Source: Lacibacter cauensis (lineage in GTDB: Bacteria > Bacteroidota > Bacteroidia > Chitinophagales > Chitinophagaceae). Taken from it: a stretch of 64,000 nt of DNA. Under the pieces are notes generated by a model. It was given only the letters and a program-made list of their open reading frames with translations. It searched no databases and was not told the DNA's origin. The DNA lies in NCBI RefSeq assembly GCF_007830055.1, contig NZ_VLLE01000004.1, forward strand, positions 89,248 to 153,247, written 5' to 3'. A program made the translations under genes and the position numbers. Positions 7,530 through 17,325 of this stretch are shown here, piece by piece. How positions within the stretch are numbered: the stretch's first letter is position 1; each line of letters opens with the position of its first letter.

Positions 7530-8788
7530 GCCACCGAAAACGAATGAAAATTGTCGGCAAATGAGTAGGTGATTTTCCAGTTGTTCAGGTCTGCAATCTT
7601 CTTGATGATAGCCAAACCCAAGCCGTTTCCTTGTTCGGATGGGTTGGATTTTGCAAAGCGGTTGAATAACTTATCTGCAACCAAAGGTTGTGGTTGTCCT
7701 GTGTTTGAAAAGGTAAGCGAATTGCTTGAAAGGATTACAACTATTTGCCCATCACTTATATTATGCCGAATGGCATTTAGAAACAAATTACTGATAAGGA
7801 TTTCCGTCAAAACAGGATTTGAATTTGTTGAAACGGTTTCATTCAATTCTGTTTTTATTATAAGATTTTTTGCCTTTGCCTGTTCGGTAAAAAAATCAAG
7901 GTGCTTTTCAATTGCTTCATACAAACTGATTGTTTGTTTCTCGTTGTAGTTGTCGTTTTCAATTTTAGAAAGCAGTAATAGATTTTTGTTGAGGCGGTTT
8001 AACCTTGATACACTATCGTTTAATGAACTTAAAATTTGGTTTTGCTGCTCTGTAAATTCTGCACTCTGAATAAGTGTATCAATCTTTGCCTGAAAAACGG
8101 CTAAAGGCGTTTGTAATTCGTGTGCTGCGTTTTCTATAAATTCCCGTTGGCTGTGGTAAATGGAAGTATTGCGTTCAATCAGTTTTTCAATGCTTTGATT
8201 TAGGCGGTTAAATTCCTCAATGTTGGTATTGGTAAGTTTAGGTTGATTGGATTTGTCAATTTCAAATTGCTCAATTTTCTGCAAGGTTTCGTAAAAAGGT
8301 TTCCAAAGATTTTGCGATAATCTTTTATTGATAATTAATAAGCCAACAAGCAACAGCGAAATGATGATTAAGAAAAGAAGTGCAATGCTTTTCATTAAAT
8401 CTTCTGTTTCCACTAAGTTAATTCGTGCTGAATAGGTGTAGGGTTTTCCTTCAATGGAAACAGGTAAATTGAGTTCCCTGTATGGTTCGTTTTCGGAATT
8501 AAGTGTGTCGTAATAATAGCTGTAAAAAATGGTGTCTTTTTGTAGGGGCTTTGCTACAATAATTTTTATATCACGGTTAAATTTGTTCCAAATAGATATG
8601 TCCGCTTCTTTCAATTGTGCAATGGAGAATTGCAAAAATTCATTCTTGCGAAGTATCAATGCTTCGTCTGCATCATCAATGTATAGCTTCTCGGTAAGGA
8701 AATAAAACAAAGGTGCTGCTATAATTAAAATCAGCACTGCAAAAATTAAATATGCTCTTGATGTTTTATGTAATAGTTTTTTAGTCAT
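7523..8788 (-). CDS. Sensor histidine kinase (periplasmic sensing, HisKA + HATPase_c)
   Basis: Two TM segments flank a ~110-aa periplasmic loop. It has an H-box (AAHELQTPLAV), N-box (LISNLFLNAIRHN) and G-boxes (GNGLGLAI). It overlaps the RR gene by 8 nt. Confidence 0.85.
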   Translation of the reverse strand: MTKKLLHKTSRAYLIFAVLILIIAAPLFYFLTEKLYIDDADEALILRKNEFLQFSIAQLKEADISIWNKFNRDIKIIVAKPLQKDTIFYSYYYDTLNSENEPYRELNLPVSIEGKPYTYSARINLVETEDLMKSIALLFLIIISLLLVGLLIINKRLSQNLWKPFYETLQKIEQFEIDKSNQPKLTNTNIEEFNRLNQSIEKLIERNTSIYHSQREFIENAAHELQTPLAVFQAKIDTLIQSAEFTEQQNQILSSLNDSVSRLNRLNKNLLLLSKIENDNYNEKQTISLYEAIEKHLDFFTEQAKAKNLIIKTELNETVSTNSNPVLTEILISNLFLNAIRHNISDGQIVVILSSNSLTFSNTGQPQPLVADKLFNRFAKSNPSEQGNGLGLAIIKKIADLNNWKITYSFADNFHSFSVAF

Positions 8789-9458
8789 TCTGCCACTTGT
8801 AACCTAATCCGTAAACTGTTTTTATATAGTCGCTGCAACCTGCATCTTTCAATTTGTTTTTAAGATTTTTGATATGGGCATACACAAAATCGTGGTTGTC
8901 CAACATATCTGCCATATCGCCTGAAAGATGCTCGGCAATAGCACTTTTTGAAAGCACTTTATTTTCATTGCCGATTAAATATAACAGCAAATCAATTTCT
9001 TTTTTAGTGATGTCAATTTTCTTGCTTTTTACTTTTACTGTTTTAGAACGAATATCAATTTCAATTTCGTTGTAAGCAACAAGATTGTTGCCTTTGAAGT
9101 TTTTTCGCCTGATGAGTGCTTGTATTCTTACAAGCAATTCAGATAAATGAAATGGCTTTGTGAGGTAGTCGTCTGCCCCCAAATTGAACCCTTCAATTCG
9201 TGTGTCCAAAGTTTCTTTTGCAGAAATGATGATTACTCCTTCGATTTTATTTTGCCGTTTTAATTCCTTCAAAATTTCAAAGCCGTTGCCGTCAGGCAAC
9301 ATCAGGTCAAGTAAAATACAATCGTATTCATAGATTGAAATTTTGTCAATTGCATTTTTTAAATTGTTTACCCATTCACATATGAAGCTATTACCTTTAA
9401 GGTAACTTCTGATGCTCTCTGCAAGCTCCTTTTCATCTTCTATGAGTAACAATTTCAT
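8781..9458 (-). CDS. OmpR-family response regulator (receiver + winged-helix)
   Basis: Phospho-acceptor region ILLDLMLPDGNGFEIL and a C-terminal wHTH (TVYGLGYKW). Confidence 0.85.
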   Translation of the reverse strand: MKLLLIEDEKELAESIRSYLKGNSFICEWVNNLKNAIDKISIYEYDCILLDLMLPDGNGFEILKELKRQNKIEGVIIISAKETLDTRIEGFNLGADDYLTKPFHLSELLVRIQALIRRKNFKGNNLVAYNEIEIDIRSKTVKVKSKKIDITKKEIDLLLYLIGNENKVLSKSAIAEHLSGDMADMLDNHDFVYAHIKNLKNKLKDAGCSDYIKTVYGLGYKWQND

Positions 9459-9480
9459 GGTACAAAACTCGGTTCCAATT

Positions 9481-9497
9481 TTGAATTAATTTAGAAT
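9481..9497. promoter_or_regulatory. TTGAAT-N4-TTAGAAT direct repeat upstream of the RR/HK operon (candidate autoregulatory site)
   Basis: Same half-site family as 7501-7529. Confidence 0.3.
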
Positions 9498-9507
9498 GGC
9501 GAATTGA

Positions 9508-11619
9508 TTATAAAAACCAAAGACTTTCTCTTCCAAAGTCAGGCAGTTTGTCGTGTTGGAAATAGGGATAAATCTCTGCAACCATTTCAGGGTATTTGAT
9601 TGTAACTGGCAAACTTTGCTGATTGGTGCTTTTCCAATACATACGGCTGAACTGATAAACCTGGTCAATGAGTTGTTCAACTAAATTCATATCATCTAAC
9701 ATGCCTTCAACAGTTGATGACAAAGCAATCTTCACCGGAAAGTGATATTCCTTCTGTGCTGGTTTTGCCGTTGCATCGTAACGGGTATTATTGAACAACA
9801 AGTATTCTGATTTACCAACTTTTACAATTGTACCACTGTAAGGCATCAGGTTATTGCCGTCTTTTAAGTCAAAGCCTAAAAGTTCTTTGCTTTCTGTTTT
9901 ATTGATGGTTACAACGATTACAGGAATATTTAAGCCTAATGTATGCAGCGTTCTCAGGATGGGTTCTAATTCCTTTTTGCCAATGTCTTTATAGAAATGA
10001 ATAACAAGCCTTGAAGCTGTGTAATTAACTGCAATGAACTTTGCAACTGCTTCACGAATAGAACCTGCAAGACTTACAGTATCGTTGCCTTTAAAACAGT
10101 CAAAGCCTTTAAACATTCCCTCGTTATTAAAGCAAAATGCAGAGCCTACAAACCTTGTTTTTCTTGTTACTGAATAGAATGCTCCAACGCCAACAATCAG
10201 TTCGTTATTGGTTGGTCTGTTTAAACGCCACGGCACACCGCCCAACTTTGCCAGCATTGCGATTTCAATATGTGGCAGGAATGTATTGAAGTAAGAATTT
10301 GGCTTACCGTTTTTGTACAGGTGTTCGCTTTTGATTACCTGTGAAAGCACACCTTCATACAATAGTATTTCTTTGATTTTATAATAGATGTTCTTCCTTG
10401 CTTCGTCTTTCTCTAATTTGGGAACCGGATTAACAAACAAAGCCATGTATTGAGTATCGGGAAGCCATTCTGCATTTTTCACAGCATTTTTCACTGCTGT
10501 AACTGCATTTTGTACTGTATCAAACTCAACGTTCTTTGAAATATCTAACTCAAAAGGAACTTTGATGTAGTCCTGCATCTTGGGGAATGGAAATCTATCA
10601 TCTTTCCAACCACTGTTCAGATACTTATATAACTCGGTAACTGCACCTGCTTTGTCTGACTGCTGATAAATGAAAAAGAATTTGAAATTGCTTGGCTTTT
10701 GTGGCAACTGGTAAGGACCTTTTGACTTAAAATCTTTCTTGGGTTCTTTCCCTGTTCTATTGCCTGAATAAAGCAGGTCATTTGATGTAGAACTAATGAC
10801 CCGATACTGCTCTGCAATTGGCTTATAAAAACCATTTGAACTGATTGGAATTAAGTTGCGGAAAGTATCGTTATCAAAATACTTGGTGTAAAAGTCTTGC
10901 AATACATTGAGGTATCTCGGATAGCGGTTTGTTAAATTTGGTACATCGTGGGCAATCTCTAAATGTGGTTTGATGTCATTACTCAATACAGGAAAGCACT
11001 TATCAGGCATATTGATTACTTCCTGCGGTCTAAACTTCCATTTGTATAAGATGCCATTGCAAACTATCCAATTGTAAAGGTTAGTATTGAAGTTGTAAAT
11101 CTCTGAAACAGGTTTAGCAAAAACTTTTGTCGTGCCGTCATAAGACAAAACTATTTCGGGTTTATCTGTAACCCTTGCATGTTGCACCTTTACAGTAAAC
11201 TGGTTGTACACATTGTATTTTGCATTGCTTTTATCCTTGTCGTGAAACCATACTTCTGTTTCGCTGGTGAAATTCTGATGGATAATGTCAGCAATGCCCA
11301 TGAAATAATCCCGAATGAGAAAACGGTAATAATGATTTGCGAACCTGTAAGAAACAGATAAGTCAATCTCCAGTTCTATTGCACCCTCTTTGGCTGGTTG
11401 AAAATCTGTGTACAGTTTGTTTAACTCTAACAGTTCTAATGCAGAAAGTTTATCATCAAGAAGCCCTTGCAAATCATCTTTGAACACCGGGTAATAATCA
11501 GCCTGTTTCTGCTTATAAAAAGCAAATTTCTGTTTCCCTTTAGGTGGGTCAAATGGAATGATGTTTAAGAGTAATTCTTGCTGCATAAAGTTTAAATATT
11601 TTCTAAACGGGTTATCCAA
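9508..11619 (-). CDS. Long prokaryotic Argonaute (pAgo), predicted catalytically inactive (long-B type)
   Basis: 703 aa. The MID-domain 5'-phosphate pocket pattern is conserved: YYKIK ... GVLSQVIK ... NTFLPHIEIAMLAKLGGVPWRL, matching the hAgo2 VYAEVK...GMATQCVQ...LKINVKLGGVN pattern (Y/K/Q/K). In the PIWI domain, the first catalytic Asp is replaced (IVGVGAFYS versus iGADVTH) and the last His/Asp is replaced (VYQFSRMYW), so the DEDX tetrad is incomplete. An alternative start at ATG 11586 would remove the 28-nt overlap with the upstream gene. Confidence 0.65.
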   Translation of the reverse strand: MDNPFRKYLNFMQQELLLNIIPFDPPKGKQKFAFYKQKQADYYPVFKDDLQGLLDDKLSALELLELNKLYTDFQPAKEGAIELEIDLSVSYRFANHYYRFLIRDYFMGIADIIHQNFTSETEVWFHDKDKSNAKYNVYNQFTVKVQHARVTDKPEIVLSYDGTTKVFAKPVSEIYNFNTNLYNWIVCNGILYKWKFRPQEVINMPDKCFPVLSNDIKPHLEIAHDVPNLTNRYPRYLNVLQDFYTKYFDNDTFRNLIPISSNGFYKPIAEQYRVISSTSNDLLYSGNRTGKEPKKDFKSKGPYQLPQKPSNFKFFFIYQQSDKAGAVTELYKYLNSGWKDDRFPFPKMQDYIKVPFELDISKNVEFDTVQNAVTAVKNAVKNAEWLPDTQYMALFVNPVPKLEKDEARKNIYYKIKEILLYEGVLSQVIKSEHLYKNGKPNSYFNTFLPHIEIAMLAKLGGVPWRLNRPTNNELIVGVGAFYSVTRKTRFVGSAFCFNNEGMFKGFDCFKGNDTVSLAGSIREAVAKFIAVNYTASRLVIHFYKDIGKKELEPILRTLHTLGLNIPVIVVTINKTESKELLGFDLKDGNNLMPYSGTIVKVGKSEYLLFNNTRYDATAKPAQKEYHFPVKIALSSTVEGMLDDMNLVEQLIDQVYQFSRMYWKSTNQQSLPVTIKYPEMVAEIYPYFQHDKLPDFGRESLWFL

Positions 11620-12254
11620 TTATTGAATCTTGGAGATTTTGCCCTTATGCGTTCCAAACCAATTGCCTCAGAAAGAATATCACCATAAACAACCTTATTG
11701 TAACCGTTAATAATTCTTTCTAAACGATGAGACGGAGAAGTAGCTTTATTGTTGTTTATCATTTCAGGATTTGCATAATCAGCAAAGGTTTTTTCAAGCT
11801 CTGCCATACCTACTAAATCTTCTTTTGGTATTTGACTTTTGATGACGTCAATATCATTGAAAAGCAATCCTTCAAATTCATGCAATTGCAAATAAGGAAT
11901 AAATCTATTTTGAAATTGTGGGTCAATGCTCTGTAACATTGATTGCTCTAGGCTATCCATACGGCTGTATTTGTCTACAATTGTATGTGCTGCATCCCAT
12001 CCCGGAAACTGGTATTTTGCATACATGCCATAATAGTCAATAAAGGTGGTCACATAAGCATCCGGTTCTGCTTTGAGGTGTGTATCGATTTGATCTTTTA
12101 ATTTACTCCATTTAACAATACCACCTCTTGATGCCTTAATTAAGGGTGTTTGCAAATAAATATTTCTGTTGATGAAAGGAACCTGTAAGTTAGTTTTAGC
12201 AAATGCTTGCTCTGTAGGTCCTTCGCAAATCATAATTATCCTTTTCATAACCAT
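11592..12254 (-). CDS. DUF4276-like protein (TOPRIM-like putative nuclease partner of the upstream ATPase)
   Basis: 220 aa. The N-terminal MICEGPTE(Q) resembles the conserved start of the DUF4276 family as I recall it. A downstream acidic 'LFNDIDVIK' gives an E...DxD-like arrangement reminiscent of TOPRIM. It is translationally coupled to the ATPase (3-nt gap) and to pAgo. Confidence 0.5.
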   Translation of the reverse strand: MVMKRIIMICEGPTEQAFAKTNLQVPFINRNIYLQTPLIKASRGGIVKWSKLKDQIDTHLKAEPDAYVTTFIDYYGMYAKYQFPGWDAAHTIVDKYSRMDSLEQSMLQSIDPQFQNRFIPYLQLHEFEGLLFNDIDVIKSQIPKEDLVGMAELEKTFADYANPEMINNNKATSPSHRLERIINGYNKVVYGDILSEAIGLERIRAKSPRFNNWITRLENI

Positions 12255-12257
12255 TTA

Positions 12258-13328
12258 CTAAAAGTTTGGTTGACCTGTTGTAATAATGTTTCTTTTCCAT
12301 AAATCATCTATGGTGTAATCTTCTAACCAGACCTTTAATTTCTCTGAATCTAACCTTTCAAAAATGCTTTCTCCGTTCTTTTGGTCAACTGTAATCACAT
12401 TTTCTGGTTCAAAATGACTTATTAAGTCAGTGGACTGAGTTGCAATAATTACTTGGCACTTTTTTGCTGCTACAGATTTTACCAACCCTGCAAGTTTGGA
12501 AATTGCCGTTGGGTGCAAGCCCAATTCAGGTTCATCAATAATGATAGTTTCCGGTAGATTGGGCTGAAGAAATAAGGTTGCTAAAGCAATAAAACGAATT
12601 GTACCATCTGACAAATCGTTTACACCATATACAGTAGAACTATACTTGCTTTGCCATCTTAGTTTCAGGTTTCCGTTACTCTCTGGACGAAAGAAAAAAT
12701 CTAAAAAGTATGGAGCTATGCTCTGGATTGTTTTTACAATGAGATTGTAGACAATAGGTTTTTCTTTTTGAATGTTATACAAATAAGCACCCAGATTGCT
12801 ACCCTTTTCATACAAATAGTATTTATCGTTCTCAATGTTTGATTCCTTATTGAATGGCGAATTTTCACCAGTATCATGAAAGTGATATTTCGCTAATTGC
12901 TTTAGATAATTTCTTATGTAGTCTGCTCTTGGGATTGTTTGATAACGCAAAACAGATTCGGGACCAAATGATGCAGCATCTACGGGGTTTTTATAATAGG
13001 GATTATTACCATACCATAAACCCTCTTTTGTGAAAATAAAACCTGCATCACCTTTCTTTATTGTAAAAGAGTAGCCGTTGGTATTGGGAAAATACAAGTG
13101 TGTTGAAATTTCCTCTGTCACTTTATCTCCCTTGTGTAAAAAAGTATCTATACCTTTTAGAGCAACAAACTCTTGTAGATTGCGATTATACACCTGCTTT
13201 AAAAAATCAAAGAAGGATAAAAAATTACTTTTACCACTTCCGTTTGCACCAATAAGAATATTGATGGGTTGGAGCTTTAGGCTTAACTCTTTAATAGATT
13301 TATAGCCGTTTATGTCAATTTTATTCAT
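12258..13328 (-). CDS. ABC/AAA_21-type ATPase (OLD/RecF-like abortive-infection ATPase family)
   Basis: 356 aa with Walker A IGANGSGKSN, an ABC-signature-like LSDGTIRF and Walker B IIIDEPELGLHP. It overlaps the HsdS stop by 4 nt. Confidence 0.75.
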   Translation of the reverse strand: MNKIDINGYKSIKELSLKLQPINILIGANGSGKSNFLSFFDFLKQVYNRNLQEFVALKGIDTFLHKGDKVTEEISTHLYFPNTNGYSFTIKKGDAGFIFTKEGLWYGNNPYYKNPVDAASFGPESVLRYQTIPRADYIRNYLKQLAKYHFHDTGENSPFNKESNIENDKYYLYEKGSNLGAYLYNIQKEKPIVYNLIVKTIQSIAPYFLDFFFRPESNGNLKLRWQSKYSSTVYGVNDLSDGTIRFIALATLFLQPNLPETIIIDEPELGLHPTAISKLAGLVKSVAAKKCQVIIATQSTDLISHFEPENVITVDQKNGESIFERLDSEKLKVWLEDYTIDDLWKRNIITTGQPNF

Positions 13329-14788
13329 TTGACTTTGTTTTGTTCGTTCTTAATGTGCTTAAATGCTTCCTTCTCGTCTTGTTCAATAAATATTTCAACT
13401 GCCTTTTTCGCCACGTCAATTAATGACTTCGACTGCTGCTCTGCTAACTGAACCGACTTAACCTTTTTTGTTATTGCTTTTACATTCTTAGATACAGGAA
13501 TAATTAAACCTGCTACATCTGTATTCTTGATGTGACCAACTGTGTCAGCAATAGTCATTTGCCTTAACAACTGCATTTGACCTATTTTACTATTGATGAC
13601 AAGAAGAATATACTCAGAGGTGAATTGCGATTTGGGTTTGATTTGAATATGACATACACGCTGATTAACATATACTGGCTCCACAACTAAACTGCTATAA
13701 AACCATTTAAGACCATCCATGCCAATCACAATATCACCAGTATTTGCCTTTGTCAATTTTAGTTTTCTTACATAATCATTATCCAACTTAGTGAGGTCGG
13801 CTGTTTGGATAAAATGAGGTTTACAATCTCTAATCCTTATGAAAGGTTCACCTTCACCCACCTCGATAAACTGTTTACTTTGAAAAGGGAAACCATTTTT
13901 TATTACTATTTCTGAACGCAGTTTTGTTGTTTCAAACTTTGATAACCGTTCAAGTAATTCAAGGCAAGCTGCATCCCAAAATTCAGCATCTAATCTGTCG
14001 CCTTTAAGCATTGTACTTAGTTTTATAATTGAGTGATTGTCCTCAATTTCAAACTGTACTTTGTAGTTCTTGAATTTAATTTTCTTTGGCTTCCAAGTGT
14101 CTAAATTCAATTCCTTGAAAAGCATGTCTTCTGCTGCCTTATACTCTTTTAAGGCTTTTTGCTGAAGGCTATAAGATGTTTCAACAAGCTGCTGTATCTC
14201 ATTCTGAAACTTCTTACTTACTACAGGTATCGGGATGGTGTACAAATATGACGGTGCAATTTCAGGCTGCAAGCCACCATACATTCCTTTATCTATTAAT
14301 TTCCGACCATAGAATGAATTAAGGAAAACGCCCAAATAAAACGGGTTGACCTTTTTTGTTCTAACGATAAGAATATGAGAAGATGCAATTAATGGTTCCC
14401 TTTGCCCAAAGTAAATTGCAGTATCCCCGAAATTTGCTCCTGTTCTTGTAATTACAACATCACCATGATTTACTAAGTTGCTCTTTAGCTTTTTAGCATC
14501 ATCTGAACTGATAAAAACCTCTGAACTCTCGAATGTAATGTTCAATGGTCTTAAATTCTGGGTTCTAAAAAAAGTTACACCCTCGTCTGAATATTCTCGT
14601 TTAATCTCTGAAGGATGCAAGATTACGGTATCAAGATTTCCAAGAGTTTTATACTTTTTACTTGTAACAGCATCATAAACCCTCAAATATTCTGGATGAT
14701 AAAACTCCGCATCAATACGTAATCTGCCTTCTAATGCAGAAAAGTTTATTGCTGAGTATTCAAAGTTTTTATACTTTCTAATGTCCAT
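13325..14788 (-). CDS. Restriction-modification specificity subunit (HsdS-like, two target-recognition domains)
   Basis: 487 aa with a duplicated TRD/coiled-coil organisation. The start is 1 nt downstream of the methyltransferase stop. Confidence 0.8.
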   Translation of the reverse strand: MDIRKYKNFEYSAINFSALEGRLRIDAEFYHPEYLRVYDAVTSKKYKTLGNLDTVILHPSEIKREYSDEGVTFFRTQNLRPLNITFESSEVFISSDDAKKLKSNLVNHGDVVITRTGANFGDTAIYFGQREPLIASSHILIVRTKKVNPFYLGVFLNSFYGRKLIDKGMYGGLQPEIAPSYLYTIPIPVVSKKFQNEIQQLVETSYSLQQKALKEYKAAEDMLFKELNLDTWKPKKIKFKNYKVQFEIEDNHSIIKLSTMLKGDRLDAEFWDAACLELLERLSKFETTKLRSEIVIKNGFPFQSKQFIEVGEGEPFIRIRDCKPHFIQTADLTKLDNDYVRKLKLTKANTGDIVIGMDGLKWFYSSLVVEPVYVNQRVCHIQIKPKSQFTSEYILLVINSKIGQMQLLRQMTIADTVGHIKNTDVAGLIIPVSKNVKAITKKVKSVQLAEQQSKSLIDVAKKAVEIFIEQDEKEAFKHIKNEQNKVK

Positions 14789-14789
14789 C

Positions 14790-17009
14790 TTAGTTGTTTA
14801 AGAAATCAAATGCTACATCACCTGCCTTAGCTCTTTTTTTACCCCAATCCTCATACGCATCGGCAATCATTGAAAGGTCAGTTTGGTAAACAGGATTTTT
14901 ATTTTCATCCAGCACTACATTACCTTCCTTATCCTGTAAAAAGATATACTCCCCTGAGTTGTTCTTAAAACTAATTTTGCTTGTAGCGAAGAATATTGGA
15001 TAATCTTTAATCTCTTCGCCTTCTTCATATTTCTTTAGAAACAACAAGCTCGTTTTTGTGCCTGTATGTGGTTTGAAGCTATTGCCATGCAAACCAACGA
15101 CTGCCAAAATCCTCGCCTTGCTGGTTACAAACTTCCGAACATACTTTTCACTGCTATTATTGAATATGCCCTGTGGCAGAACAATAACAGCTCTTCCCCC
15201 TGGGTTCAACAAATCAAGAACCCTCTCAATAAAAAGTATATGCCTATCAACTTTCTCCCACTTGCTTTCGTTCTTTTTGAAGTTGATAATTTCTTTTATC
15301 CTTGGGGTCAATTGTGGCTCAAATAATTCGCCTTCCAATACAGCATCTATCATTACCTGAGATATTAACTGACAAGCAAACTGCTGGTCATCTTCACTTT
15401 CCAAATCAATTTCCTCATCTTTATTTATCTCTTTCACTTTTGCAATTATGCTTTCAATACCTTCATCAGTAAAGGTTATTTCAAACTCCTCTGCAATGGT
15501 ATTTATCATTGCTTTAATCTTGCCAGTATCAATTTTAAAAGTGTAACGATGCCCTAAGATTTCATTGTAAAGATTGATTAATGATTTTTCCTGTATATCG
15601 CCTGCGAATGGCGGGTTGCTCATTACTATATCAAAATGCAAGTGCTTGTTTTTATCATCACTTATCAAATCTTCTTTTTGAAGTTCAACAGTAATTTCAG
15701 GTGTCCACTTGGGATGCTCCAAAGAGTTTTGTTTAAAGATGTGTGTTTTACCATCACCTGCAATCAGCATTATTGCTCTTGAAATTTTTGCTGACTTTTC
15801 ATCAAAGTCAATACCCCATAAATATTTTGAAGCATAATTAACCTTTGCTTTCTCGGTGGTCATTTTGTATTTATTCCACACATACTCCATTGTATGCACA
15901 AGAAAACCTGCTGAACCACAAGCCGGGTCAATTACATATTCCTTATTGCTTGGGTTTATCATTCGTACACAAAAATCAATTACAGGTCTTGGTGTGAAGT
16001 ATTGCCCTTTCTTGCTTTTAGCAACATCAGGTATTAAATATTCAAACGCTTCATCAATGATGCGGAGGTTGGAGAAAAACAGTTTAACTTCTGTGAGTTC
16101 ACCAACACAAACGTTCAAATGTTCCGGTGTTAATTCAATGCTATCAGAAGCTGCAAAAATTCCTTTCCATTCTTTCTTTGCATCATCAAACAGTTTGCCT
16201 ATTTCCCTTTTGGTTACTTCTGCTGTTTTGTATTGGCGGAAAAGCAAGGATTTATCCTTCCTGTTTTCTGCCTCCCATTCATCATACAACTTTGCGTAGA
16301 TGAGTTTGAAAATCTCTGTAAAGCTGTCTGCACCGGAATTAGCAAGTACAAGTTCTTCCAGCACTTCAATAATCTTGCGAAGATTGAACTGCTTATTTTC
16401 ATTGATCTTCTCTAATTCAGATAAGGTCCACTTACGGCCAAGAATAATGTCTTTGATTGAGGCTGCCGGATGTTCTTCATCTTTTACCTGCTGATATTCC
16501 GCTTCAGTAGGAATGTCTGGTAAGCTATCATCAAACTCTTTTGGGTATGGTCTAAAAAGCCTTGTAATGGCATTACCGTTTACACCAACACCAAGCGGAG
16601 AACCTTCATTGTTCAAATAGCTTTTAAGCTGCTGTATGCTATTCTTTTGGGATGGAGCTTTTACCTCCACCAAAATCCACGGTGTTGTTTCGTCTTCCTG
16701 GTAAACAACTATATCAGCCCGTCCTCGTCCGTTCCTTCCGAAACTTACATTCTGCTCACACTTCAACCTGTTTTTGGGATAGTGATAATGTTCTGTCAAT
16801 TCAGTAAGGAATAATTGCCTTACAATTTCTTCGGGTGCAGATTTGCCTGTGGCTACATTGTAAACCAATTTGTCTTTTCCTTCGCTGTCGTGACTTTTTA
16901 AATACCACTTGCCTTTTTCCTTCTCAAAGAATTTGAGTTTCGGAACGTATTGCTTTTGCAGTGACAGATCCGTTTCCCAGTTGGGCAGTATTTTTGAAAG
17001 TATATCCAT
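14790..17009 (-). CDS. Fused PD-(D/E)xK nuclease (HsdR_N-like) + N6-adenine DNA methyltransferase; type IIB (BcgI A-subunit-like) or type I-like RM enzyme
   Basis: 739 aa. The N-terminal RADIVVYQEDETTPWILVEVKAP is a D...EVK nuclease motif. MTase motif I is IDPACGSAGFLV and motif IV is NPPF. There is a ~110-aa insertion between NPPF and the LLNPGGRAVIVLPQGIF motif. No HsdR helicase gene is present in the operon. Confidence 0.7.
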   Translation of the reverse strand: MDILSKILPNWETDLSLQKQYVPKLKFFEKEKGKWYLKSHDSEGKDKLVYNVATGKSAPEEIVRQLFLTELTEHYHYPKNRLKCEQNVSFGRNGRGRADIVVYQEDETTPWILVEVKAPSQKNSIQQLKSYLNNEGSPLGVGVNGNAITRLFRPYPKEFDDSLPDIPTEAEYQQVKDEEHPAASIKDIILGRKWTLSELEKINENKQFNLRKIIEVLEELVLANSGADSFTEIFKLIYAKLYDEWEAENRKDKSLLFRQYKTAEVTKREIGKLFDDAKKEWKGIFAASDSIELTPEHLNVCVGELTEVKLFFSNLRIIDEAFEYLIPDVAKSKKGQYFTPRPVIDFCVRMINPSNKEYVIDPACGSAGFLVHTMEYVWNKYKMTTEKAKVNYASKYLWGIDFDEKSAKISRAIMLIAGDGKTHIFKQNSLEHPKWTPEITVELQKEDLISDDKNKHLHFDIVMSNPPFAGDIQEKSLINLYNEILGHRYTFKIDTGKIKAMINTIAEEFEITFTDEGIESIIAKVKEINKDEEIDLESEDDQQFACQLISQVMIDAVLEGELFEPQLTPRIKEIINFKKNESKWEKVDRHILFIERVLDLLNPGGRAVIVLPQGIFNNSSEKYVRKFVTSKARILAVVGLHGNSFKPHTGTKTSLLFLKKYEEGEEIKDYPIFFATSKISFKNNSGEYIFLQDKEGNVVLDENKNPVYQTDLSMIADAYEDWGKKRAKAGDVAFDFLNN

Positions 17010-17013
17010 TGGT

Positions 17014-17325
17014 TTACTTGTTTTTCTTTTTTGTTTTACGATACTTTATTTCGTCCTCAGCAACCTGCATTGCTTTAAGTGCCAAATCCTCATCTTTCGT
17101 TACATCAATAATCTGGTCCGCTAACCAAAGTGTAAGCAATTCATCGTTGCTGACTTTCATTATTCGGGCTAACTGAATTACCTGCTCTTTCTTGGCTTTG
17201 CGTTCCCCTCTCTCAATTTTACTAAGCATAGGAGTATCAATTTCCAAAATAGAAGCAACCTGCCTTTGCAACAAATTATTCTGCTCTCTGAGTTGCTTTA
17301 ATCGTTCACCAAATTGGTTTGCCAT
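17014..17325 (-). CDS. XRE-family HTH transcriptional regulator (candidate C-protein-like controller of the RM/defence operon)
   Basis: 103 aa with LKQLREQNNLLQRQVASILEIDTPMLSKIERGER (XRE HTH). Its stop is 4 nt from the RM gene start. An ATTGCCA direct repeat sits at the start codon. Confidence 0.75.
   Translation of the reverse strand: MANQFGERLKQLREQNNLLQRQVASILEIDTPMLSKIERGERKAKKEQVIQLARIMKVSNDELLTLWLADQIIDVTKDEDLALKAMQVAEDEIKYRKTKKKNK

What the first reader, a model, noticed from the sequence alone, without database searches (positions are those of the whole stretch)
11592..13328. Split OLD/PARIS-like module: ABC ATPase (Walker A/B + LSDGT signature) translationally coupled to a DUF4276-like protein with a TOPRIM-like E…DxD pattern
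Two-gene ATPase+TOPRIM systems (PARIS AriA/AriB, Gabija, AbiL, OLD) are abortive-infection effectors. PARIS is triggered by the anti-restriction protein Ocr. The position directly downstream of an RM system fits an anti-anti-restriction guard, and the position directly upstream of a dead pAgo suggests it could be the pAgo effector.
Basis: partly seen in the sequence, partly recalled or inferred. Interest (0 to 1): 0.7.

Follow-up and report, generated by a model that had tools for sequence, protein, structure and literature searches.

The report
Split OLD-like ATPase–TOPRIM defence pair
Two adjacent genes encode an ABC-type ATPase and a small TOPRIM-fold (DUF4276) nuclease-like protein; this pair is already catalogued as the unproven anti-phage candidate HEC-01 and is related to Mad3-Mad4, and here it is swappable cargo on a Bacteroidota mobile element, not a dedicated partner of the neighbouring restriction system or Argonaute.

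Summary

Both proteins match PADLOC HEC-01A/B over full length (E 2.6e-133 and 8e-76). HEC-01 is a published ATPase+TOPRIM candidate that gave no protection when tested. The pair is therefore a new member of a known kind. It is not PARIS (no DUF4435), not Gabija and not MADS (all scores below cut-off).

In 80 genomes the two genes are adjacent; in the 76 loci measured the gap is -8 to +17 nt. Their neighbours vary widely and are often housekeeping genes. RM-like genes were found nearby in 3 of 80 loci, and a pAgo in 2 of 62. No DUF4276 was found in 80 loci of pAgo relatives, including a near-identical element that carries a different M+S cassette in the same slot.

The "pAgo effector" idea is not supported. 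The "anti-anti-restriction guard" idea is untested and not suggested by context.

The parts
12258..13328 (-). ABC ATPase (356 aa), the HEC-01A-type sensor/regulator subunit of the pair
11592..12254 (-). DUF4276 TOPRIM-fold protein, the HEC-01B-type putative nuclease subunit. The start is probably the ATG at 12248, giving 218 aa.
13325..14788 (-). Context, not part of the pair: specificity (S) subunit. Its stop overlaps the ATPase start by 4 nt.
   Evidence: PADLOC Specificity_I 3e-36. NCBIfam MAD5 146 bits, below the cut-off of 400. Coordinates.
14790..17009 (-). Context: methyltransferase with an N-terminal HSDR_N_2 PD-(D/E)xK-like domain (putative R-M fusion)
   Evidence: Pfam HSDR_N_2 2.7e-20 and N6_Mtase 2.6e-37. 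PADLOC MTase_I 3.7e-161. A D...EVK motif is visible in residues 99-117.
17014..17325 (-). Context: XRE-type HTH gene heading the tight six-gene array
   Evidence: Pfam HTH_19/HTH_31/HTH_3. Gaps between consecutive genes from HTH to pAgo run from a 4-nt overlap to at most 9 nt.
9508..11586 (-). Context: catalytically inactive long-B-like pAgo (692 aa from the ATG at 11586; the TTG at 11619 is probably not the start)
   Evidence: PADLOC pAgo 1e-267. Most homologues are 684-692 aa and cover 98% of the query. GVGAF aligns with GTGAT of inactive AfAgo. PDB hits AfAgo 5e-20, EcAgo 1e-15, RsAgo 3e-12.

Best explanation
The pair is a self-contained two-gene cassette of the HEC-01 type, that is, a "split OLD" nuclease. 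It consists of an SMC/Rad50/OLD-branch ABC ATPase and a separately encoded DUF4276 TOPRIM protein.

Shown:
- The two genes are inherited together as a unit.
- They are always adjacent and nearly abutting.
- They retain all ATPase motifs and the family-invariant acidic residues.
- They sit in very different genomic neighbourhoods.

Inferred, by analogy with OLD, Gabija and PARIS:
- The ATPase dimerises or oligomerises on ATP and holds or regulates the TOPRIM subunit.
- An infection-associated cue changes the ATPase state and licenses metal-dependent cleavage of nucleic acid by the TOPRIM subunit.
- The target could be DNA or tRNA and is unknown.
- The outcome would be direct or abortive anti-phage or anti-plasmid defence.

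In this window the cassette has been inserted into the variable defence-cargo slot of a Bacteroidota integrative element. The element order is Int, DUF6617, HTH_17, DUF3987, XRE-HTH, [cargo], pAgo. The cassette lies between an R-M-fusion+S restriction system and a dead pAgo. It is probably co-transcribed with them but does not depend on them.
For: - Family: PADLOC HEC-01A/B full-length matches and Pfam DUF4276.
- Unit behaviour: the ATPase lies directly upstream of DUF4276 in 80 of 80 genome loci. The gap is -8 to +17 nt in the 76 loci measured, and the identities of the two proteins to the window proteins correlate (r = 0.86).
- Autonomy: immediate neighbours are highly diverse and include IDH, PGI, FBPase, PGK and tRNA synthetase genes. 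RM-like genes were found in 3 of 80 loci and a pAgo in 2 of 62.
- Slot swapping: L081 shares Int, DUF3987 and pAgo at ~95% DNA identity, but a different M+S without the pair replaces window 17020-11587. Homology resumes exactly at the pAgo ATG. In L001 the ATPase-TOPRIM-pAgo block is kept while M+S is replaced.
- The same six-gene array (HTH to pAgo) recurs: 24 contigs carrying the 97%-identical DUF4276 protein were read, 8 are shown, and all 8 have the same gene order as far as they extend.
- Literature: HEC-01 is described as an ATPase + TOPRIM with a conserved OLD-like metal site. DUF4276 is assigned to the Toprim superfamily. "MADS3-4" is listed among ABC ATPase + TOPRIM systems.
Against: - No function has been demonstrated for this family as a stand-alone pair. 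The tested HEC-01 representative protected against none of the phages tried.
- The canonical TOPRIM DxD is replaced by D-[YF]-[YF], so nuclease activity is only inferred. I could not inspect the 3D clustering of the invariant carboxylates.
- Many neighbourhoods are housekeeping genes rather than defence islands.
- No physical ATPase-TOPRIM interaction was modelled.
- The family is rare on viral contigs (4 hits in a pattern-limited scan).
Confidence: 0.6

Rival explanations
1. The pair is the restriction or effector arm of the adjacent M+S genes. The four genes would form a MADS-like or HsdR-less type I-like unit, in which the ATPase-TOPRIM cuts unmethylated DNA recognised by M+S.
For: - The S stop overlaps the ATPase start by 4 nt, and there is no separate HsdR in the operon.
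- The best NCBIfam hits of M, ATPase and S are MAD2, MAD3 and MAD5.
- In MADS, mad3 and mad4 deletions reduce defence.
- L001 also has M+S directly upstream. In L021 the pair lies between Mod and Res of a type III system.
Against: - All MADS scores are far below cut-off: 100 vs 420, 258.6 vs 720 and 146 vs 400.
- No PADLOC mad4 hit was found for the DUF4276 protein.
- The mandatory mad6-8 genes have no counterpart in the array.
- No RM-like gene was detected in 77 of 80 pair loci.
- M+S cassettes are exchanged independently of the pair, in L001 compared with the window, and L081 has M+S without the pair.
- M carries its own PD-(D/E)xK-like domain.
Confidence: 0.15
2. The pair is a PARIS-like guard. 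The ATPase senses anti-restriction proteins (Ocr/ArdA-like) that attack the neighbouring RM system and releases the TOPRIM toxin.
For: - In this window it lies next to an RM system.
- The PARIS literature places DUF4276-associated ATPases on the same AAA15/21 tree.
Against: - The TOPRIM partner is DUF4276, not DUF4435, and the AriA match comes only from a generic model.
- RM adjacency is rare in the family (3 of 80).
- The tested HEC-01 gave no defence against the panel of BASEL phages and classic coliphages used.
- There is no trigger information.
Confidence: 0.08
3. The pair is the nuclease effector of the downstream catalytically dead pAgo.
For: - The DUF4276 stop lies 5 nt before the pAgo ATG.
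- The pAgo is inactive and has no known long-B effector next to it.
- The ATPase-TOPRIM-pAgo trio is syntenic in L001, and a pAgo follows the pair, after Res, in L021.
Against: - None of the 80 pAgo-relative loci contains a DUF4276 by profile search. 43 of them have at least 2 kb upstream.
- Only 2 of 62 pair loci have a pAgo.
- The near-identical element L081 has the pAgo without the pair.
- Genes directly upstream of the pAgo are many different RM and defence genes.
- Co-occurrence is explained by a shared cargo slot of related elements. The L021 integrase is 65% identical.
Confidence: 0.04
4. The pair is not an immune system. It could be a selfish addiction-type or toxin-like cassette, or a DNA-repair or maintenance factor that hitch-hikes through genomes.
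For: - Many loci have only housekeeping neighbours.
- HEC-01 gave no protection when tested. [quoted passage not shown]
- The best structural neighbours of the ATPase are SMC/Rad50 heads.
Against: - The closest characterised relatives of both halves are defence nucleases: OLD, Gabija, PARIS and retron-associated OLD.
- The pair recurs embedded in RM systems and on a defence-laden mobile element.
- Mad3/Mad4 are needed for MADS defence.
Confidence: 0.12

Closest known systems
HEC-01 (PADLOC Hma-embedded candidate 01; Payne et al., bioRxiv 10.1101/2024.01.29.577857)
   Same: It is a two-gene ABC ATPase + TOPRIM (DUF4276-type) cassette. Both window proteins match the HEC-01A and HEC-01B models over full length. 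It occurs both embedded in other systems and alone.
   Different: Here it is not inside an Hma system. It lies after an R-M-fusion+S pair and before a pAgo on a Bacteroidota integrative element. HEC-01 itself has no demonstrated activity.
Mad3-Mad4 of MADS (methylation-associated defence system)
   Same: It is an AAA_21-type ABC ATPase plus a DUF4276 protein next to a methyltransferase and an S subunit. The literature groups MADS3-4 with ABC ATPase + TOPRIM systems.
   Different: NCBIfam MAD3, MAD2 and MAD5 scores are far below cut-off. There is no PADLOC mad4 hit. The gene order differs (M-S-ATPase-DUF4276), and the mandatory mad6-8 genes are absent.
OLD-family nucleases (P2 Old, Ts OLD, Bp OLD)
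   Different: The two domains are on separate polypeptides. The canonical DxD is replaced by D-Y-Y, with an invariant HEFE motif after strand 4.
PARIS (AriA/AriB)
   Same: It has a two-gene ABC ATPase + TOPRIM architecture, and both proteins are structural neighbours.
   Different: AriB is DUF4435, which is not matched. AriA similarity is generic (97 bits against 442 for HEC-01A). The trigger and target are unknown.
Gabija (GajA/GajB)
   Same: It belongs to the OLD-like ATPase + TOPRIM class. GajA is a structural neighbour of both models.
   Different: GajA is a fusion protein, and there is no UvrD-like GajB in the operon.

Membership tests
HEC-01 (PADLOC) | Protein A matches a HEC-01A ATPase model | tested here: met
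   PDLC04175: E 2.6e-133, 442.6 bits, residues 1-354 against profile positions 6-362 of 363
HEC-01 (PADLOC) | Protein B matches a HEC-01B TOPRIM/DUF4276 model | tested here: met
   PDLC04188: E 8.2e-76, 252.7 bits, residues 2-219 against profile positions 11-225 of 230
HEC-01 (PADLOC) | The two genes are adjacent on the same strand | tested here: met
   3-9 nt apart on the minus strand. Adjacent in 80 of 80 related loci.
HEC-01 (PADLOC) | Anti-phage activity | not testable with these tools
   The published representative gave no protection.
Pfam DUF4276 / Toprim superfamily | Score above the Pfam gathering threshold | tested here: met
   187.6 bits against a cut-off of 30.2
Pfam DUF4276 / Toprim superfamily | TOPRIM fold with Glu after strand 1 and DxD after strand 3 | tested here: inconclusive
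   [not shown]
OLD family nuclease (class 1/2) | ATPase and TOPRIM in one polypeptide | tested here: not met
   They are separate ORFs of 356 and 218-220 aa.
OLD family nuclease (class 1/2) | OLD-type ABC ATPase domain | tested here: met
   phmmer hit to Ts OLD 6p74, E 1.5e-8, over residues 3-314. PADLOC Old 9e-22.
PARIS | AriB (DUF4435 TOPRIM) partner | tested here: not met
   Only DUF4276 in Pfam and only HEC-01B models in PADLOC at E <= 0.01.
PARIS | Specific AriA ATPase | tested here: inconclusive
   The AriA models hit at 97 and 64 bits. The better one spans the same 304 positions as Pfam AAA_21. HEC-01A scores 442 bits.
PARIS | Activation by anti-restriction proteins such as Ocr | not testable with these tools
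   This needs a co-expression experiment.
Gabija | GajA fusion plus GajB UvrD-like helicase | tested here: not met
   There is no helicase gene in the HTH-to-pAgo array. GajA scores 67.6 bits only.
MADS | MAD2, MAD3 and MAD5 equivalog scores | tested here: not met
   258.6 vs 720, 100.4 vs 420 and 146.2 vs 400 bits
MADS | Mandatory mad6-mad8 genes in the operon | tested here: not met
   The array holds only HTH, M, S, ATPase, DUF4276 and pAgo. The flanks are DUF3987 and a response regulator. mad6-8 are defined as mandatory.
Long-B pAgo effector systems (BPAN/BPAS/BPAM) | The effector is conserved next to pAgo across relatives | tested here: not met
   No DUF4276 hit in 80 loci of pAgo relatives. 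Upstream and downstream neighbours are variable.

The most novel reading that the evidence does not exclude
In this lineage of Bacteroidota integrative elements the RM module, the ATPase-TOPRIM pair and the dead pAgo might act as one composite system. RM or pAgo would mark or recognise invader DNA, and the ATPase-gated TOPRIM would act as the shared nuclease. This would explain why the trio ATPase-TOPRIM-pAgo stays syntenic while M+S is swapped (L001), and why the pair is embedded in a type III RM followed by a pAgo (L021).
Probability: 0.06. Interest if true: 0.75.

Novelty: new member of a known kind. Interest (0 to 1): 0.27.

Why it matters
The result assigns the locus to an existing but functionally unproven candidate family, HEC-01, which is related to Mad3-Mad4. 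It shows that in Bacteroidota this family behaves as an autonomous, tightly linked two-gene cassette. It corrects the presumed catalytic motif to E9, D71 and the HEFE motif (E124/E126). It also removes two attractive but unsupported ideas, the pAgo effector and the RM-dependent guard. The well-defined cargo slot, with natural variants that have the pair (this window, L161-L168), lack it (L081) or carry a different RM (L001), gives a ready set of isogenic-like comparisons for testing whether HEC-01-type pairs are active in a native-like host.

Tried and rejected
- Exact look-up of the window ATPase in the assembly index found nothing on record.
- A profile search of PDB sequences with the DUF4276 alignment gave only insignificant hits (best E 0.032). 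The TOPRIM assignment therefore rests on fold comparison.
- The Foldseek afdb50 library was unavailable.
- I could not obtain model coordinates, so I could not check whether E9, D71, E124 and E126 cluster in 3D.
- A search for attachment-site direct repeats between the pAgo end (about 9.4-9.56 kb) and the integrase flank (22.4-23.1 kb) found none of 10 nt or more. Element ends are undefined.
- The promoter/terminator scan of 9.3-17.6 kb gave counts close to shuffled expectation and no convincing minus-strand terminator inside the array.
- The published Cell Host & Microbe MADS paper is not in the library. I used the preprint 10.1101/2023.03.30.534895.
- MANTIS (Gao_RL) was checked and is unrelated.
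- A viral-contig scan found only 4 distant DUF4276 loci.
- Rejected: PARIS, Gabija, class 1 OLD and MADS membership, and the pAgo-effector reading (see the membership tests).
Full report
**Observation**

The minus strand between 9.5 and 17.3 kb carries six abutting genes:
- XRE-HTH, 17014-17325
- a 739-aa methyltransferase, 14790-17009
- a 487-aa specificity subunit, 13325-14788
- the 356-aa ATPase, 12258-13328
- the 220-aa ORF, 11592-12254
- a pAgo, 9508-11619

The gaps between consecutive genes range from a 4-nt overlap to at most 9 nt.

The ATPase has Walker A GANGSGKS (27), signature LSDGT (239) and Walker B IIIDEP (262). It matches Pfam AAA_21, AAA_15 and SMC_N.

The small protein is a full-length DUF4276 (3.8e-55). 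Most homologues are 218 aa and start at the second ATG (12248). The ATPase stop (TAG) is therefore followed by 3-9 nt, and the genes do not overlap.

pAgo homologues start at the ATG at 11586, 5 nt after the DUF4276 stop, not at the TTG at 11619.

**Fold and active site**

No solved relative is detectable by sequence.

I aligned representatives down to 31% identity. They come from a family of 2,826 50%-identity clusters. The invariant residues, in 218-aa numbering, are E9, G10, E13, F16, G43, D71, E124, E126, E162, I164, T170, P172, K185, F208 and W211.

The predicted secondary structure places E9 right after strand 1 and D71 at the end of strand 3. These are the canonical TOPRIM positions. 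However, the motif is D-[YF]-[YF], not DxD. An invariant HEFE follows strand 4.

The only literal DxD, D132-I-D134, is not conserved. Whether the invariant carboxylates form a two-metal site is an inference I could not check in 3D.

**Family assignment**

Both proteins match PADLOC HEC-01A (2.6e-133) and HEC-01B (8.2e-76) over full length. HEC-01 was described as an ABC ATPase plus a TOPRIM protein, found embedded in Hma systems, with an OLD-like metal site. It gave no protection against the phages tested.

Independent papers place DUF4276 in the Toprim superfamily as a Mad4 homologue. They also list "MADS3-4" among ABC ATPase + TOPRIM systems.

NCBIfam's best hits for M, ATPase and S are MAD2, MAD3 and MAD5, but all are far below cut-off. 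The DUF4276 protein hits no PADLOC mad4 model. The mad6-8 genes, which are mandatory in the MADS model, are absent.

AriB/DUF4435 is not matched. The AriA hit is generic. There is no GajB-like helicase. The pair is therefore a HEC-01-type "split OLD". It is not PARIS, Gabija, class 1 OLD or MADS.

**Comparative genomics from the pair's side**

A scan of one genome per species returned 367 relatives. I examined the best 80, at 56-90% identity and nearly all Bacteroidota.
- The ATPase lies immediately upstream of DUF4276 in 80 of 80 loci.
- In the 76 loci measured, the gap is -8 to +17 nt and 19 overlap.
- The identities of the two proteins to the window proteins co-vary (r = 0.86).
- The flanking genes are extremely diverse and often housekeeping: IDH, PGI, FBPase, PGK and tRNA synthetase.
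- An XRE-HTH sits just upstream in roughly 7-10 loci.
- RM-like genes within 10 kb were found in only 3 of 80 loci. This used tblastn with ten M/S/Mod/Res queries, so sensitivity is limited.
- A pAgo lies downstream in only 2 of 62 informative loci.

These two loci are instructive:
- L001 has a different M (no HSDR_N_2 detected) and S, then ATPase-TOPRIM-pAgo. This block is syntenic with the window at 76.6% DNA identity.
- L021 has type III Mod, then ATPase, TOPRIM, type III Res and pAgo. There the pair is embedded inside an RM system.

The 97%-identical DUF4276 protein was read on 24 contigs from different sequencing runs. The 8 places shown all have the same HTH-M-S-ATPase-DUF4276-pAgo order as far as each contig extends. 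The family is rare on viral contigs.

**Comparative genomics from the pAgo's side**

The pAgo is inactive. GVGAF aligns with GTGAT of AfAgo, and the best PDB relatives are AfAgo, the long-B EcAgo and RsAgo.

I examined 80 metagenomic loci of relatives at 42-99% identity, 43 of which have at least 2 kb upstream. Neither tblastn nor a DUF4276 profile finds the pair in any of them.

L081 is essentially the same element. Int, DUF3987 and pAgo are 99% identical as proteins, and the DNA is about 95% identical. Window 17020-11587 is replaced there by a different HSDR_N_2-N6_Mtase plus S, without the pair. Homology resumes exactly at the pAgo ATG and ends at its stop.

The gene directly upstream of the pAgo is on the same strand in 54 of 56 loci, but it belongs to many different families. 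These include HsdR, YhcG, Eco57I-type enzymes, RhuM, Schlafen, FokI-cleavage domains and S subunits. The downstream genes are also variable.

The pAgo therefore marks one edge of a variable defence-cargo slot. The pair is one of many cargos.

**Interpretation**

The best-supported reading is an autonomous ATP-regulated TOPRIM nuclease cassette of the HEC-01 type, inserted into this slot and probably co-transcribed with its neighbours. No convincing internal minus-strand terminator was found.

The mechanism is inferred from OLD, Gabija and PARIS and is not shown. In it, the ATPase acts as sensor or clamp, and the TOPRIM subunit acts as a metal-dependent nuclease on DNA or tRNA.

The MADS-like rival remains possible but is disfavoured, because the RM cassettes and the pair are exchanged independently. 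In that rival the pair would be the restriction arm of M+S. The pAgo-effector reading is not supported. The PARIS-like trigger idea cannot be tested here and is not suggested by context.

**Novelty**

This is a new member of a known, catalogued but functionally unproven kind. Earlier surveys already noted methyltransferases, HsdS, type III endonucleases and HTH proteins enriched in pAgo operons. They also noted defence genes embedded in RM systems. The context is therefore not new in kind either.

Noticed in passing
window 11587-17020 (compare L081:6790-10000): A near-identical integrative element (L081: Int, DUF3987 and pAgo 99% aa, ~95% DNA identity) carries a different HSDR_N_2-N6_Mtase + S cassette and no ATPase/DUF4276 in the same slot. 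Homology breaks exactly at gene boundaries (HTH end, pAgo ATG, pAgo stop). This points to modular cargo exchange between the XRE-HTH gene and the pAgo.
   Followed up: partly
window 9508-11586: The pAgo is catalytically inactive and long-B-like. Across 56 relatives with upstream sequence, the preceding gene is on the same strand in 54, but it comes from many different RM and defence families. There is no conserved effector on either side, so how this pAgo clade acts is open.
   Followed up: partly
window 14790-17009: The methyltransferase has an N-terminal HSDR_N_2 domain with a D...EVK (PD-(D/E)xK-like) motif, and there is no separate HsdR. It may be an R-M fusion that works with the separate S subunit (type IIB-like or type I-like).
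   Followed up: no
L021:7009-15502: The ATPase-DUF4276 pair is embedded between Mod (N6_N4_Mtase) and Res (ResIII + RE_endonuc) of a type III RM system, followed by a 37%-identical pAgo. The element's integrase is 65% identical to the window's.
   Followed up: partly
L009, L039, L050, L055, L060, L062 (gene directly upstream of the ATPase): An XRE-type HTH gene, 51-57% identical to the window's HTH at 17014-17325, sits immediately upstream of the ATPase in several otherwise unrelated loci. It may be a dedicated regulator that travels with the pair.
   Followed up: no
window 11586-11619 and 12248-12254: The longest-ORF starts are probably wrong. pAgo homologues begin at the ATG at 11586 (mostly 684-692 aa), not the TTG at 11619. 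Most DUF4276 homologues begin at the second ATG, 12248 (218 aa).
   Followed up: yes
[not shown]
   Followed up: no
window 8000-16000 compared with >23000: G+C is 0.34-0.36 across the defence array, 0.40-0.47 in most of the window beyond 23 kb (with dips to 0.38-0.40 around 55-61 kb) and 0.36-0.38 at 1-8 kb. No attachment-site repeats of 10 nt or more were found, so the element ends are undefined.
   Followed up: partly
L146:3109-4275: A distant ABC ATPase (profile E 1.5e-14) lies about 6 kb upstream of a 46%-identical pAgo. It is followed by a 283-aa ORF that does not match DUF4276, so it may be a different ATPase-effector pair.
   Followed up: no
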